13,856 nt of DNA from a virus (Duplodnaviria > Heunggongvirae > Uroviricota > Caudoviricetes). The translations under genes were made by a program, and so were the position numbers. The notes below the pieces were generated by a model, which worked only from the letters and a program-made list of their open reading frames with translations, made no database searches and was not told the origin of the DNA. This document shows, piece by piece, positions 6,886-13,856 of the stretch. Position 1 is the stretch's first letter; each line of letters opens with the position of its first letter. The stretch lies in IMG/VR virus record IMGVR_UViG_2585427730_000012. One strand, 5' to 3'.

Positions 6886-7018
6886 TTTTTGGGACTCCTG
6901 GCTGATTAAGTATGTCGATAAGGCGTTTCCATCCGTCACGTAATTTACGGGTGATTCGTTCAAGTAAAGATTCGGAAGGGCAGCCAGCAACAGGCCACCC
7001 TGCAATGGCATATTGCAT
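6854..7018 (-). CDS. cIII: λ CIII (FtsH inhibitor that stabilises CII), 54 aa
   Basis: Hand-translated: [54 protein letters not shown], then TAA; missed by the ORF track because it is shorter than the cutoff and overlaps kil in another frame. Confidence 0.9.
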   Translation of the reverse strand: MQYAIAGWPVAGCPSESLLERITRKLRDGWKRLIDILNQPGVPKNGSNTYGYPD

Positions 7019-7090
7019 GGTGTGCTCCTTATTTATACATAACGAAAAACGCCTCGAGTGAAGCGTTATTGGTATGCGGTAACGCCGCGC

Positions 7091-7719: not shown

Positions 7720-8301
7720 ATGAACAACTCATGGTGGCAGGAACTAATGCATTTTTTCCTGCAAGGAATGACACTTAAACAGTTGATTCATATGCTAATC
7801 ATCCTGATCATATTGATTATTGTTATGCCTGTAAGCGTAAAAGAATGGATAAACCTGCATAATCCAGAAATCCTTCCTCATTACTGGATGTATTACATCC
7901 TGTTGTTTTGCGTTAGCTATGTGCTTAACGGCGTTGTTAATTCCGCTTATCACGCTGTGACTGAAAGAATTGAGATATTCGCTGCTCAGAAGCGCAAATC
8001 TAAAGAAGAGAAATACGTGCAAGATTTGTTTGATTCGTTAACTCTTGGAGAAAGAGCGTATTTGGCATTCGCTGTAGCCGCTAATAACCAGCTAAAGACA
8101 GAAAAGGGAAGCCCTGAAGCAATCTCATTGCTCGAAAAAGGGCTTCTTATTCGGGTACCTTCTGCTACTGGATATCCTGAAATCGACCGTTTTGTTATCC
8201 CGGAACGCTATAGAAATGAGTGCTACATTAGGTTTGCTGGGAAGAAAGACAGTCTTATGGATGAACTTATCGCTCAGGATAAGCATGGCAAAAACAAGTA
8301 A
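7720..8301 (+). CDS. sieB: Superinfection exclusion protein B (SieB), membrane protein; 193 aa from first ATG, 184 aa from ATG at 7747
   Basis: N-terminal hydrophobic segment LIHMLIILIILIIVMPVSV; opposite strand to the surrounding early-left genes; ends 16 bp before the N-like gene, as λ sieB does; the 184-aa form matches the recalled λ sieB length and coordinates. Confidence 0.82.
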   Translation: MNNSWWQELMHFFLQGMTLKQLIHMLIILIILIIVMPVSVKEWINLHNPEILPHYWMYYILLFCVSYVLNGVVNSAYHAVTERIEIFAAQKRKSKEEKYVQDLFDSLTLGERAYLAFAVAANNQLKTEKGSPEAISLLEKGLLIRVPSATGYPEIDRFVIPERYRNECYIRFAGKKDSLMDELIAQDKHGKNK

Positions 8302-11140: not shown

Positions 11141-11838
11141 AAAACATCGCCGCACAGATGGTTAACTTTGACCGTGAGCAGATGCGTCGGATCGCCAACA
11201 ACATGCCGGAACAGTACGACGAAAAGCCACAGGTACAGCAGGTAGCGCAGATCATCAACGGTGTGTTCAGCCAGTTACTGGCAACTTTCCCGGCGAGTCT
11301 GGCTAACCGTGACCAGAACGAACTGAACGAAATCCGCCGCCAGTGGGTTCTGGCTTTCCGGGAAAACGGGATCACCACAATGGAACAGGTTAACGCAGGA
11401 ATGCGCGTAGCCCGTCGGCAGAACCGACCATTCCTGCCATCACCCGGGCAGTTTGTTGCATGGTGCCGGGAAGAAGCATCCGTTATCGCCGGACTGCCAA
11501 ACGTCAGCGAGCTGGTTGATATGGTTTACGAGTATTGCCGGAAGCGAGGCCTGTATCCGGATGCGGAGTCTTATCCGTGGAAATCAAACGCGCACTACTG
11601 GCTGGTTACCAACCTGTATCAGAACATGCGGGCCAATGCGCTTACTGATGCGGAATTACGCCGTAAGGCCGCAGATGAGCTTGTCCATATGACTGCGAGA
11701 ATTAACCGTGGTGAGGCGATCCCTGAACCAGTAAAACAACTTCCTGTCATGGGCGGTAGACCTCTAAATCGTGCACAGGCTCTGGCGAAGATCGCAGAAA
11801 TTAAAGCTAAGTTCGGACTGAAAGGAGCAAGTGTATGA
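11137..11838 (+). CDS. P: Replication protein P (λ P, DnaB helicase loader), 233 aa
   Basis: MKNIAAQMVNFDREQMRRIANNMPEQYDEKPQVQQVAQIINGVFSQLLATFPASLANRDQNELNEIRRQWVLAFRENGITTMEQVNAGMRVARRQNRPFLPSPGQFVAWCREEAS... matches λ P as recalled; ATGA overlap with the O stop. Confidence 0.95.
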   Translation: MKNIAAQMVNFDREQMRRIANNMPEQYDEKPQVQQVAQIINGVFSQLLATFPASLANRDQNELNEIRRQWVLAFRENGITTMEQVNAGMRVARRQNRPFLPSPGQFVAWCREEASVIAGLPNVSELVDMVYEYCRKRGLYPDAESYPWKSNAHYWLVTNLYQNMRANALTDAELRRKAADELVHMTARINRGEAIPEPVKQLPVMGGRPLNRAQALAKIAEIKAKFGLKGASV

Positions 11839-12008
11839 TGGGCAAAGAGGCAATTATTCATTACCTGGGGACGCACAAGAGCTTCTGTGCGCCGGACGTT
11901 GCTGCGACAACAGGTGTGACATTAACCAGCATAAATCAGGCTGCGGCAAAAATGGCGCGGGCAGGAATCCTGGTCATTGATGGTAAGGTCTGGCGAACGT
12001 TTGTTTAA
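11835..12008 (+). CDS. ren: Ren-like protein, C-terminally truncated or replaced (57 aa, against 96 aa in λ)
   Basis: Hand-translated: MMGKEAIIHYLGTHKSFCAPDVAATTGVTLTSINQAAAKMARAGILVIDGKVWRTFV, then TAA. Matches the recalled λ Ren N-terminus (MTGKEAIIHYLGTHNSFCAPDVAALTGATVTSINQAAAKMARAGVLVIEGKVWRT...) and diverges or stops after KVWRT. Overlaps the P stop. Confidence 0.7.
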   Translation: MMGKEAIIHYLGTHKSFCAPDVAATTGVTLTSINQAAAKMARAGILVIDGKVWRTFV

Positions 12009-12154
12009 CGGTTAGCTACTCAGGATGATAGGGCGGGGCAAGTGAGTATGAAGCGGATTTTCAGGAATGCCATCAGAGTTTGGAAATAAAGTGGGTTTTC
12101 TAGTGGCAAGAGACTTGATAATATTTAGTTCTTTGAATCCAAGGAGATAGGGTT

Positions 12155-12649
12155 ATGAGAAAATTTATTTTAGCCTTTGTTATAAGTGCCTCGTTTACAG
12201 CAAATGCTGGTGTAGAGAAGTTAGGGCCGTGGATAACAAAGTCTGAGATAAATAAAATGACTGACCAGACTGACTTTGTGGCCCTTAATTTATCACCAGA
12301 TTCATATAACAAAGCAGGTACTGATCGTGCAACTTCACTGGTGTTGCGTTGTAGTGATAACAAAACAGATGCCTATTTATCATTCAATGATTATATGGGT
12401 TCGGACAACCCAAGAATTACAGTGCGGTTAGATGGCGGAAAGCCGGTCAAGAGTGTTTGGGGAGGTGGGGAAGGCGGTGATTCTGCATTTGCTCCACAAC
12501 CAATACAATTTATAAAGACCTTGGCTAAGCATAAAAAAGCTATTTTTGGGTTTGAACCTTATGGATCAACTATGCAAGTAGTTGAGTTTGACTTGTCTGA
12601 GATTGATAAGGTTGTGGAAAAAATTTCACAGTCTTGCAATTGGAAATGA
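12155..12649 (+). CDS. Moron-encoded secreted (periplasmic or exported) protein of unknown function, 164 aa
   Basis: Strong RBS AAGGAGA 7 nt upstream of the ATG; N-terminal signal peptide MRKFILAFVISASFTANA with an AxA cleavage site and no lipobox cysteine; two cysteines in the mature part; AT-rich; followed by its own terminator. Confidence 0.75.
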   Translation: MRKFILAFVISASFTANAGVEKLGPWITKSEINKMTDQTDFVALNLSPDSYNKAGTDRATSLVLRCSDNKTDAYLSFNDYMGSDNPRITVRLDGGKPVKSVWGGGEGGDSAFAPQPIQFIKTLAKHKKAIFGFEPYGSTMQVVEFDLSEIDKVVEKISQSCNWK

Positions 12650-12666
12650 CAAAAAAATTTCATATG

Positions 12667-12694
12667 AACCCAGTTTGCGCTGGGTTTTTTATTT
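12667..12694 (+). terminator. Intrinsic terminator of the secreted-protein moron
   Basis: AACCCAG-TTTGCG-CTGGGTT followed by a T-run (TTTTTTATTTC), 18 bp after the stop codon. Confidence 0.8.
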
Positions 12695-13175
12695 CAGTAG
12701 CCAATAATGCATTCAAAATCTCTTACTTGAGAAACGGCCTATTTGAGATTTCAGTCGTGGCAGGATGATCAGTTGATTCGAGTATTGACGCATTTGCGTT
12801 CGGAGCGATTACAGTAGATTGTAAATAATAATGAGAAACACATAGCCACCCCGTGGTATTGAAACCATATAATGTTGGATTTGAAAACAGATCTTTTCCC
12901 ATGTATTAATAACTACATCCCCGCGAGTGATTCAAAAAGGAGGGCCCAATTTTGTCCGAGTTTTTGTATTCCCCCGCATGCCGCTGCGGAGCACTACATC
13001 TGAGTGTCTGACTAGGGGATAAAATTAGACTGGATAGTGAGAAGAAAGTGGCGCGCTAGGCTGTGCCGAGTGCTACCAGTACACCTTGGGGGTGTGCAGC
13101 TTTCGCCGAGACTGTAGTGGGTATCGGTTAATGCACGAAAAACCGAGAGGTCAGACAACCAATTTGCCGTAGGAT

Positions 13176-13856
<681 letters not shown>

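What the first reader, a model, noticed from the sequence alone, without database searches (positions are those of the whole stretch)
12009..12694. Self-contained cassette for a secreted 164-aa protein inserted after a truncated ren
The unit has its own near-consensus RBS (AAGGAGA), a classical Sec signal peptide (MRKFILAFVISASFTANA), two cysteines suited to a periplasmic disulfide, and a textbook intrinsic terminator (12667-12694). It is AT-rich and sits where the ren homologue breaks off. That is the organisation of a phage moron expressed from the lysogen independently of phage late transcription. I do not recognise the protein; exported moron products in this class are often conversion factors acting on the cell envelope or on incoming phage.
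Basis: partly seen in the sequence, partly recalled or inferred. Interest (0 to 1): 0.68.

Follow-up and report, generated by a model that had tools for sequence, protein, structure and literature searches.

The report
Prophage moron encoding exported VasI-like protein
A small add-on gene (a "moron") in a defective lambda-like E. coli prophage encodes a protein predicted to be exported to the periplasm; it belongs to the poorly understood VasI/TagO family of type VI secretion accessory proteins, its relatives sit next to the tape-measure gene of other prophages, and it may block incoming phages, though that is untested.

Summary
The ORF 12155-12649 (164 aa) has a strong RBS, a Sec-type signal peptide, two family-invariant cysteines, a hairpin terminator at 12666-12694 and low GC (38% against 49-53% in P and ren). 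The true unit starts near 12104, because 12009-12103 is still ren pseudogene.

The protein can be identified. It is phrog_1848 (function unknown), a short member of the VasI/TagO superfamily (PF11319, just above cut-off; a family profile finds 3829 clusters), and RefSeq already names it TagO. It fails the VasI equivalog model, lacks the N-terminal Cys module, and was never found in a T6SS locus.

All 53-81% identical relatives lie in siphovirus prophage tail modules, mostly 40-95 nt upstream of the tape-measure gene. That is the slot of the HK97 gp15 exclusion moron. The E. coli copies (at least 98% identical, 84 of 5426 complete genomes) are one recent transfer to the ren/nin junction.

An extended -10-like motif and a terminator with compensatory stem changes accompany the gene wherever it is found, and dN/dS is 0.08-0.18. 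So the moron architecture is well supported.

Function is inferred only. My best guess, about 0.4, is periplasmic superinfection exclusion, by analogy with gp15 and with SDIC4B, an exported VasI-fold anti-phage protein. This is a new member of a known kind, of moderate interest.

The parts
11835..12103 (+). ren pseudogene: nonsense codon TAA at 12006-12008, a 1-nt deletion further on, and the last ~35 nt missing
   Evidence: Alignment to a full-length ren. Megablast shows ren homology to query position 245. PGAP labels it 'protein ren; frameshifted; internal stop'. It matches phrog_7054 and phrog_142, Ren-like exclusion protein, residues 1-55 against profile 11-65 of 116.
12116..12124 (+). Candidate extended -10 promoter element TGATAATAT (TGn + TAATAT), 30 nt upstream of the ATG. 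The -35 region is weak.
   Evidence: TGnTA...T is invariant in 11 of 11 aligned upstream regions from E. coli, Salmonella, Citrobacter, Serratia, Pantoea and Klebsiella loci that are otherwise 49% identical. TGNTANNNT occurs at -50..-30 in 23 of 32 distinct upstream sequences, against a 1.6% background. The two-hexamer scan did not detect it. Promoter activity is inferred.
12141..12147 (+). Ribosome-binding site AAGGAGA
   Evidence: Sequence. DNA homology with the tail-module copies starts here, at 12141/12147.
12155..12649 (+). Gene for a 164-aa pre-protein of the short, phage-borne VasI/TagO-like family (phrog_1848). The mature form is predicted at 146 aa, 16.1 kDa, pI 5.9.
12155..12208 (+). 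Sec (SPase I type) signal peptide, residues 1-18, with predicted cleavage ANA|GV
   Evidence: Hydropathy and the pattern across the family. AF2 pLDDT is below 50 for residues 1-17. No cysteine lies near the cut, so it is not a lipoprotein.
12666..12694 (+). Intrinsic terminator: GAACCCAG-loop-CTGGGTTT stem plus a T-rich tail
   Evidence: Scan. A hairpin plus T-run is conserved after most homologues examined (28 of 32 distinct loci), with different stems and compensatory changes. DNA homology with the tail-module copies ends at 12693.
13222..13856 (+). Context only: left end of IS100 with the start of istA, abutting the prophage at 13221/13222
   Evidence: Window 11801-13221 equals L002 8793-10213, and 13222-13300 equals L002 15811-15889, just upstream of istA.

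Best explanation
The unit 12104-12694 is a phage moron: one gene with its own extended -10 promoter, a strong RBS and an intrinsic terminator.

**Origin.** It was transferred once, recently, from the tail module of an enterobacterial siphovirus prophage into the 3' end of ren in an E. coli lambdoid prophage. In the source lineage it sits just upstream of the tape-measure gene.

**Product.** The 164-aa product is exported by Sec and cut after Ala18. It folds in the periplasm into an IalB/VasI-type beta-sandwich with two helices. This fold is probably stapled by a C66-C161 disulfide.

**Proposed action (inferred).** The protein is made in the lysogen. It acts in the periplasm as a superinfection-exclusion or anti-phage factor that interferes, after adsorption, with envelope penetration and DNA delivery by incoming tails. 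Its target would be the tape-measure/tail-tip complex or a host factor that complex needs.

**Shown here:** anatomy, homology, fold class, genomic contexts and purifying selection.

**Inferred:** promoter activity, export, the disulfide and the anti-phage role.
For: **Architecture**
- RBS, ORF and terminator are present.
- DNA shared with the tail-module copies spans exactly 12141-12693.
- A TGnTA...T motif about 30-37 nt before the ATG is conserved in different contexts.
- The terminator is kept through compensatory changes.
- GC is 38% against 49-53% in the flanks.
- dN/dS is 0.08-0.18.

**Patchy presence**
- 84 of 5426 complete E. coli genomes carry it, always beside ren, whereas ren-like DNA is in 2464 genomes.

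**Identity**
- phrog_1848, E = 2.7e-70.
- PF11319 scores 26.7 against a cut-off of 26.5.
- The family profile finds 3829 clusters, many of them ~200-aa VasI-like proteins.

**Context**
- All 59 loci with 53-81% identical copies lack P and ren.
- In 41 of the 56 informative loci, an ORF of at least 550 aa starts 40-95 nt downstream. Where genes were annotated, that ORF carries tape-measure Pfam domains.
- A remote relative lies between Phage_TAC_13/Phage_tail_T and Tape_meas_lam_C in an HK97-like prophage. This is the slot of the HK97 gp15 moron, a prophage-expressed exclusion protein that blocks genome injection (PMC3594210).

**Precedent**
- SDIC4B is a VasI-fold protein that alone gives 10-200-fold phage protection (bioRxiv 10.1101/2024.01.28.577318).
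- Its sequence shows a signal-peptide-like N-terminus and two cysteines in matching positions.
- Its family model has the same order of secondary structure and also hits 3dtd and 8z5n_A.

**T6SS VasI**
- VCA0118 is predicted to be exported. [quoted passage not shown] This fits a role in envelope crossing by a tail-like device.
Against: - No experiment on this protein exists, and no paper cites its accession.
- PADLOC finds nothing.
- In the window itself the gene is no longer next to a tape-measure gene.
- T6SS VasI promotes killing rather than blocking it.
- Adjacency to the tape-measure gene may simply reflect a permissive insertion site.
- The two-hexamer promoter scan found nothing upstream. 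Nine of 32 upstream variants lack the exact TGNTANNNT motif.
- SignalP could not be run, and the Cys-Cys distance in the model could not be read.
Confidence: 0.4

Rival explanations
1. T6SS-related lysogenic conversion. The exported VasI-like protein either modulates the host's own type VI secretion system, as an extra truncated TagO, or protects the lysogen's envelope against T6SS attack by neighbours.
For: The protein belongs to the VasI/TagO superfamily, and PGAP names it TagO. VCA0118 affects T6SS killing without affecting secretion. Many E. coli carry a T6SS-cluster tagO, for example EDL933_0224.
Against: It fails the VasI equivalog model, 14.4 against 124.2 bits. It lacks the N-terminal Cys/RLxCFD module of the ~200-aa relatives. 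None of about 100 loci examined shows T6SS genes nearby; all are prophage contexts. Hosts span genera whose T6SS content varies. The role of TagO is itself unknown (PMC13584744).
Confidence: 0.15
2. Phage life-cycle function tied to the tape measure. The protein is made mainly during lytic growth, by read-through of late or pR transcripts, and conditions the periplasm of the producing cell. For example, it might stop progeny from injecting into lysing cells or debris, or help lysis and release, rather than protecting the lysogen.
For: It lies tightly and repeatedly 40-95 nt upstream of the tape-measure gene inside late operons. It has the same orientation as the surrounding operon in every context, including pR-O-P-ren here.
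Against: It carries its own terminator directly before the tape-measure RBS, and a conserved promoter-like motif, as expected for independent expression. The gene is kept intact, at 98% identity or more, in E. coli prophages where it is unlinked from tail genes. One of these is this defective prophage, which has lost Q and the lysis genes.
Confidence: 0.15
3. Host-interaction or virulence factor. This would be an IalB-like or adhesin-like envelope protein that changes how the lysogen interacts with eukaryotic cells or predators such as amoebae.
Against: IalB's molecular function is unknown, and the similarity is in fold only (9% identity; no Pfam IalB hit at E <= 1). Carriers also come from soil, sludge, frog, mink, crayfish and salad. 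The family is spread over environmental Enterobacterales prophages.
Confidence: 0.1
4. A general periplasmic fitness or stress protein, or a selfish passenger with no measurable benefit, kept only through linkage and recent spread.
For: No function is known for phrog_1848. The E. coli lineage is young, at 98-100% identity, so its persistence there says little.
Against: There is strong purifying selection over deep divergence (dS above 1, dN/dS about 0.1). Forty-four columns are invariant across six genera. The regulatory signals are conserved.
Confidence: 0.15

Closest known systems
HK97 gp15 moron (superinfection exclusion; Cumby et al. 2012, summarised in PMC3594210)
   Same: It is a single-gene moron with its own expression signals. 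[quoted passage not shown] The product is directed to the cell envelope.
   Different: gp15 is a small inner-membrane YebO-like protein. This protein is a soluble, exported 16-kDa beta-sandwich of the VasI family. No homology is expected, and none was tested. The window copy sits at ren/nin, not in the tail module. An exclusion phenotype has not been tested.
SDIC4B (PF27224), the VasI-fold anti-phage protein of Serratia LptG-YjiA defence islands (bioRxiv 10.1101/2024.01.28.577318)
   Same: It is about 157 aa, with an N-terminal signal-peptide-like segment. One cysteine lies on an early strand and one near the C-terminus. The predicted order of secondary structure is the same: seven strands, helix, two strands, helix. 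Both models hit IalB 3dtd and 8z5n_A. It acts as a single protein.
   Different: No significant sequence or profile similarity was found, and it belongs to a different Pfam family. It is encoded in chromosomal defence islands, often next to BrxR, not in prophage tail or replication modules. Its mechanism is unknown.
T6SS accessory protein VasI/TagO (PF11319, TIGR03360; V. cholerae VCA0118)
   Same: Homologous domain. Both are predicted to be exported. The LRC and C-terminal C-x-W motifs are shared.
   Different: The window protein is shorter: 164 aa against about 200-227 aa. It lacks the N-terminal Cys-containing module; the Pfam match covers only profile positions 78-184. It fails the equivalog cut-off. 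It is never found in a T6SS cluster.
IalB, invasion-associated locus B protein of Bartonella (PDB 3dtd)
   Different: Identity is 9%, and there is no sequence-level match. It is a chromosomal gene of alpha-proteobacteria, and its molecular function is unknown.
Other cargo at the 3' side of ren in lambdoid prophages (for example emrE in DLP12-type prophages)
   Same: Same insertion region, directly downstream of ren and before the nin genes.
   Different: The cargo proteins are unrelated. In those prophages ren is intact, whereas here it is a pseudogene with a truncated 3' end.

Membership tests
Phage moron (sense of Juhala/Hendrix; PMC3594210) | An extra gene present in some but not other related phages, lying between conserved genes | tested here: met
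   84 E. coli genomes carry it, against 2464 with ren-like DNA. Other prophages have emrE or nin genes after ren. The same unit is found in tail modules of unrelated prophages.
Phage moron | Own terminator | tested here: met
   A hairpin plus T-run lies 17 nt after the stop codon. It is conserved with compensatory changes in most homologues examined (28 of 32 distinct loci). Termination activity itself was not assayed.
Phage moron | Own promoter | tested here: inconclusive
   No two-hexamer sigma-70 match lies upstream. A positionally conserved extended -10-like TGnTAnnnT is present in 23 of 32 distinct upstream regions, against a 1.6% background.
Phage moron | Base composition differs from the neighbouring genes | tested here: met
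   38.2% GC, against 53.3% for P and 49.1% for ren.
Phage moron | Expressed from the repressed prophage | not testable with these tools
   This needs RNA-seq, 5'RACE or a reporter in a lysogen.
VasI/TagO (PF11319 / TIGR03360) | Pfam PF11319 score at or above the gathering threshold | tested here: met
   26.7 against 26.5 bits, a marginal pass that covers profile positions 78-184 only. Most family members carry a precomputed PF11319 hit. The family profile reaches 3829 clusters, including ~200-aa VasI-like proteins.
VasI/TagO (PF11319 / TIGR03360) | NCBIfam equivalog TIGR03360 cut-off | tested here: not met
   14.4 bits against a cut-off of 124.2.
VasI/TagO (PF11319 / TIGR03360) | Encoded within or next to a T6SS gene cluster | tested here: not met
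   All loci examined are prophage contexts.
VasI/TagO (PF11319 / TIGR03360) | N-terminal module with two extra cysteines (C...RLxC[FY]D), seen in the ~200-aa relatives | tested here: not met
   It is absent. The mature protein starts about 8 residues before the conserved W26.
VasI/TagO (PF11319 / TIGR03360) | Exported, with the conserved Cys pair (LRC ... C-x-W) | tested here: met
   Signal-peptide features. C66 and C161 are invariant. The motifs recur across the superfamily. Export itself was not assayed.
SDIC4B anti-phage family (PF27224) | Sequence or profile homology to SDIC4B | tested here: not met
   hhalign probability is below 1% and P is about 0.1, with both narrow and broad profiles.
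SDIC4B anti-phage family (PF27224) | Shared VasI/IalB-like fold | tested here: inconclusive
SDIC4B anti-phage family (PF27224) | Reduces phage plating when expressed alone | not testable with these tools
   This needs efficiency-of-plating assays.
HK97 gp15-type exclusion moron | [quoted passage not shown] | tested here: not met
   Not met for the window copy, which lies at ren/nin. Met for its 53-81% identical relatives and for a remote relative.
HK97 gp15-type exclusion moron | Homology to gp15/YebO | not tested
The two are different protein classes: a small membrane protein and an exported beta-sandwich.

The most novel reading that the evidence does not exclude
Short exported VasI-fold proteins may be a general class of periplasmic factors that act on envelope penetration by phage-tail-like machines. 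Under this reading, the prophage copies, including this one, bind the incoming tape-measure/tail-tip complex and block DNA injection. That would explain why they are kept immediately upstream of tape-measure genes. The T6SS paralogue VasI/TagO would use the same fold to assist passage of the T6SS needle. If so, the unexplained T6SS accessory protein and the SDIC4 defence would share one mechanism.
Probability: 0.2. Interest if true: 0.7.

Novelty: new member of a known kind. Interest (0 to 1): 0.45.

Why it matters
VasI/TagO has been an unexplained T6SS accessory protein since 2011. Finding a compact, strongly conserved, phage-borne branch of the family gives a simple single-gene system to test what this fold does in the periplasm. 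That branch travels as a moron, and outside E. coli it sits next to the tape-measure gene. If it excludes phages, three things follow. It adds a periplasmic protein class to prophage-encoded superinfection exclusion. It matters for phage-therapy host range in E. coli, Klebsiella, Salmonella, Serratia and Enterobacter. [quoted passage not shown] If it does nothing of the kind, it remains an ordinary uncharacterised moron.

Tried and rejected
- **PADLOC:** no defence-family hit.
- **NCBIfam:** only a sub-threshold VasI hit.
- **PDB by sequence and by family profile:** nothing meaningful.
- **Rfam over the whole window:** nothing in or near the cassette; the only real hit is the lambda cIII thermoregulator.
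- **Sigma-70 two-hexamer scan:** no site upstream of the ORF on the + strand.
- **afdb50 Foldseek:** library unavailable.
- **hhalign of narrow and broad family profiles against an SDIC4B profile:** not significant, so I do not claim homology to SDIC4B.
- **Genome-contig scan:** only 3 loci, too few for a census.
- **P0034:** no context on record.
- **Literature search for the RefSeq accession:** zero papers.
- **Lipoprotein:** rejected, because there is no cysteine near the cleavage site.
- **Virion or tail component, suggested by its position in tail modules:** rejected, because a Sec signal peptide and its own terminator do not fit a cytoplasmic assembly role.
- **Minus-strand ORF 12100-12363 (87 aa):** considered, but nothing supports it.

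Full report
**Setting**

The window is a lambdoid prophage integrated next to ybhC. It carries int, xis, exo/bet/gam, cIII (the Rfam lambda cIII thermoregulator is at 6973-7031), sieB, cI, cro, cII, O and P. After P comes a 57-codon ren ORF (11835-12008), then the ORF in question (12155-12649). From 13222 onward the sequence is IS100.

**1. The observation**

All listed features are real.

- The RBS AAGGAGA lies at 12141-12147, 7 nt before the ATG.
- The N-terminus has a basic n-region, an 11-residue hydrophobic core (Kyte-Doolittle 2.49, against a maximum of 0.65 elsewhere) and A-N-A before the predicted cut.
- The same pattern is kept in all 25 aligned homologues, although the residues differ. 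AF2 is unconfident only for residues 1-17.
- C66 and C161 are the only cysteines and are invariant.
- The terminator-like hairpin, with its stem at 12666-12687 and a T-rich tail, is the only one in 11800-13300. One site is also what shuffled sequence yields. Its significance therefore comes from conservation, described in section 4.
- GC is 38.2% for 12104-12694, against 53.3% for P and 49.1% for the ren remnant.
- dN/dS against orthologues is 0.08-0.18, with dS up to 1.3, so this is a functional gene.

The left boundary needs correcting.

- Alignment to a full-length ren shows a TAC-to-TAA nonsense change at 12006-12008.
- ren homology then continues, with a 1-nt deletion, to about 12100. Only about the last 35 nt of ren are lost.
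- PGAP independently annotates the ren pseudogene to the equivalent of 12103.
- The added unit is therefore about 12104-12694.

**2. What the protein is**

- It matches phrog_1848 end to end (E = 2.7e-70; function unknown).
- It scores just above the Pfam VasI (PF11319) threshold, 26.7 against 26.5 bits, matching only the C-terminal 60% of the model.
- It fails the VasI equivalog TIGR03360, 14.4 against 124.2 bits, and has no PADLOC hit.
[quoted passage not shown] The exact sequence is on at least 1000 contigs.
- A profile of 25 family members searched against 1.84 billion representatives finds 3829 clusters at E <= 1e-3 and 1231 at E <= 1e-10.
  - Many of these are ~200-aa proteins with sub-threshold TIGR03360 similarity.
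  - They carry an extra N-terminal C...RLxC[FY]D module that the phage family lacks.
  - The LRC and C-terminal C-x-W motifs are shared with the phage family.
- No relative has a solved structure by sequence.
- The AF2 model (pLDDT 78.6, pTM 0.74) has seven strands, a helix, two strands and a helix.
- In BFVD only uncharacterised phage proteins match.

In summary, it is a short, exported member of the VasI/IalB-fold class, with no enzymatic signature.

**3. Where the family lives**

- In complete E. coli genomes the cassette occurs in 84 of 5426, at 98-100% identity and always beside ren. It is also in one isolated phage, IdasGreatGrand.
- Homologues at 53-81% identity occur in Klebsiella, Pantoea, Serratia, Citrobacter, Salmonella and unassigned enteric contigs.
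  - All of them lie in siphovirus prophage tail modules.
  - The gene order there is major tail protein, DUF6246, variable cargo, the VasI-like gene and, usually about 40-60 nt later, the tape-measure gene; in the Klebsiella loci one or two small genes intervene. The variable cargo includes KilA-N, antirepressors, Arc, YafO toxin and SocA.
- A census of 102 loci:
  - 43 copies at 98% identity or more all have P upstream.
  - 59 more distant copies never do.
  - In 41 of the 56 informative distant loci, an ORF of 556-1221 aa starts 40-95 nt downstream.
  - These loci are not independent samples.
- A remote relative (P0032) sits between Phage_TAC_13/Phage_tail_T and a lambda-type tape-measure gene in an HK97-like prophage. 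Another sits in a decayed prophage behind DUF6246.
- The chaperone/tape-measure slot is where the first described moron, HK97 gene 15, lies. gp15 is expressed from the prophage and blocks genome injection in a manner that depends on the incoming phage's tail (PMC3594210).
- No locus showed T6SS genes.

**4. The mobile unit and its signals**

- DNA similarity between the window and the nearest tail-module copies (76-78% nt) runs from 12141/12147 to 12690/12693. That span covers the RBS, the ORF and the terminator.
- Upstream sequences are otherwise unalignable, yet TGnTA...T is invariant in 11 of 11 aligned regions.
  - The exact pattern TGNTANNNT lies at -50..-30 in 23 of 32 distinct upstream sequences, against 1.6% in random windows.
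  - In the window it is TGATAATAT (12116-12124), an extended -10 form that the two-hexamer scan could not score.
- Downstream, most copies examined (28 of 32 distinct loci) have a GC-rich hairpin plus T-run, with at least five different stems. Three of 7 pairs show compensatory double changes and only one cell is broken.
- This is the anatomy of a moron, conserved while its neighbourhood changes.
- The E. coli lineage looks like one recent transfer into the 3' end of ren. That position carries other cargo elsewhere, for example emrE.
- From memory, lambda tR2 lies just after ren. If so, the cassette terminator would also act on un-antiterminated pR transcripts. This was not checked here.

**5. 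Mechanism**

Shown here: the gene's architecture, its family and fold class, its prophage-only contexts and purifying selection.

Inferred:
- transcription from its own promoter in the lysogen;
- Sec export and cleavage after A18, giving a 146-aa, 16.1-kDa periplasmic protein;
- a C66-C161 disulfide.

My best functional hypothesis is periplasmic interference with envelope penetration or DNA delivery by incoming phage tails. It rests on three indirect lines.

- *The gp15-type slot next to the tape-measure gene*. The tape measure is also a recurrent target of prophage defences. [quoted passage not shown]
- *SDIC4B.* A Serratia preprint showed that this VasI-fold protein alone gives 10-200-fold protection.
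  - I recovered its sequence from the supplement. It has a signal-peptide-like N-terminus and two cysteines in positions matching those of the window protein.
  - Its family (PF27224) gives an AF2 model with the same order of secondary structure.
  - Profile-profile comparison is not significant, so this is an analogy of fold and architecture, not demonstrated homology.
- *V. cholerae VasI (VCA0118).* It is predicted to be exported, is not needed for Hcp or VgrG-1 secretion, and is needed for killing amoebae and E. coli. A 2026 review still lists TagO/VasI as unknown.

I put about 0.85 on "moron encoding an exported VasI-family protein" and about 0.4 on the anti-phage role. The rivals are T6SS modulation or protection, a lytic-cycle role tied to the tape measure, an IalB-like host-interaction factor, and no measurable benefit.

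**6. Comparison and novelty**

- It behaves like an HK97 gp15-type exclusion moron in organisation, and its relatives share that location, but the protein class is different.
- It is a peripheral member of the VasI/TagO superfamily. It fails three of that family's defining features: the equivalog score, the T6SS context and the N-terminal module. The RefSeq name is therefore probably misleading for the prophage copies.
- It is already catalogued (a PHROG, a RefSeq name) but has never been studied.
- I classify it as a new member of a known kind, of moderate interest.

Noticed in passing
window 13221/13222 (compare L002 10213 and 15811): IS100 abuts the prophage directly after the unannotated stretch that follows the cassette. 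Compared with strain 120899, about 5.6 kb is missing: the nin genes, rusA, Q, an ompC-like porin and the lysis genes. This looks like an IS100-adjacent deletion, and it makes the prophage defective while the cassette is retained.
   Followed up: partly
window 12695-13221: This is a 527-bp stretch at 45% GC with no convincing ORF, no Rfam hit and no annotation in RefSeq. It is conserved in phages IdasGreatGrand and Turner. Positions 223-527 of it match Klebsiella phages Kp4856-1 and Kp4862-1 at 77%. In IdasGreatGrand a 1.8-kb insert separates it from the cassette. Its function is unknown.
   Followed up: partly
L109 3735-4965 (Escherichia phage 500465-2); L110 3235-4465 (Citrobacter phage Shae_phiSM); L105-L107: A different VasI-domain subfamily (217-297 aa) occurs as a two-gene pair with a ~110-aa zinc-ribbon protein. 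The pair sits at the end of P2-like prophages, after gene D and ogr, and the same pair is seen on metagenome contigs. Remote VasI-like genes also occur in Pasteurella, Brucella and Acinetobacter phages. VasI-domain proteins therefore appear to be recurrent prophage cargo.
   Followed up: partly
L003-L019 and L104, between the DUF6246/chaperone gene and the tape-measure gene: The chaperone/tape-measure gap in these siphovirus prophages is a cargo hotspot. It holds KilA-N proteins, antirepressors, Arc repressors, a YafO-family toxin with a partner, and a SocA_Panacea protein. In most loci examined the VasI-like gene is the last gene before the tape-measure gene.
   Followed up: partly
L020 1501-2203 (E. 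coli NZRM3614): In a DLP12-type prophage an intact ren is followed by emrE. The 3' side of ren is thus a general insertion point for cargo.
   Followed up: no
window 12092-12099 (GGGTTTT): The ren/cassette junction falls in a short stretch that resembles two things: the ren sequence at that point (CGGGTATT) and the GGGTTTTG motif found upstream of the tail-module copies. This hints at microhomology at the recombination joint. It is weak evidence.
   Followed up: no
E. coli hits H22 (NZ_CP084055) and H31 (NZ_AP027877): In strain X14-3 the cassette region (TagO-like gene/ren) is interrupted by IS1A. In strain 2018-05-2CC only the 3' 289 nt of the cassette is present, next to D-serine ammonia-lyase.
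   Followed up: no
protein cluster of window:12155-12646: The 90%-identity cluster holding this protein also contains replication protein P sequences (233 aa), and its representative is a P protein. This is probably a clustering artefact caused by a chimeric or fused gene call. It explains why the first homology search returned few E. coli entries.
   Followed up: no
window 7720-8301: The prophage also carries a sieB (superinfection exclusion protein B) gene between the N region and cI. The lysogen therefore already has at least one exclusion function.
   Followed up: no
BFVD hits: Uncharacterised proteins of lytic T4-like phages (RB16, KP15, Vibrio phage VH7D) are the best viral structural matches (Foldseek E 1e-5 to 3e-3; TM 0.46-0.62). 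The fold is therefore not restricted to temperate phages.
   Followed up: no
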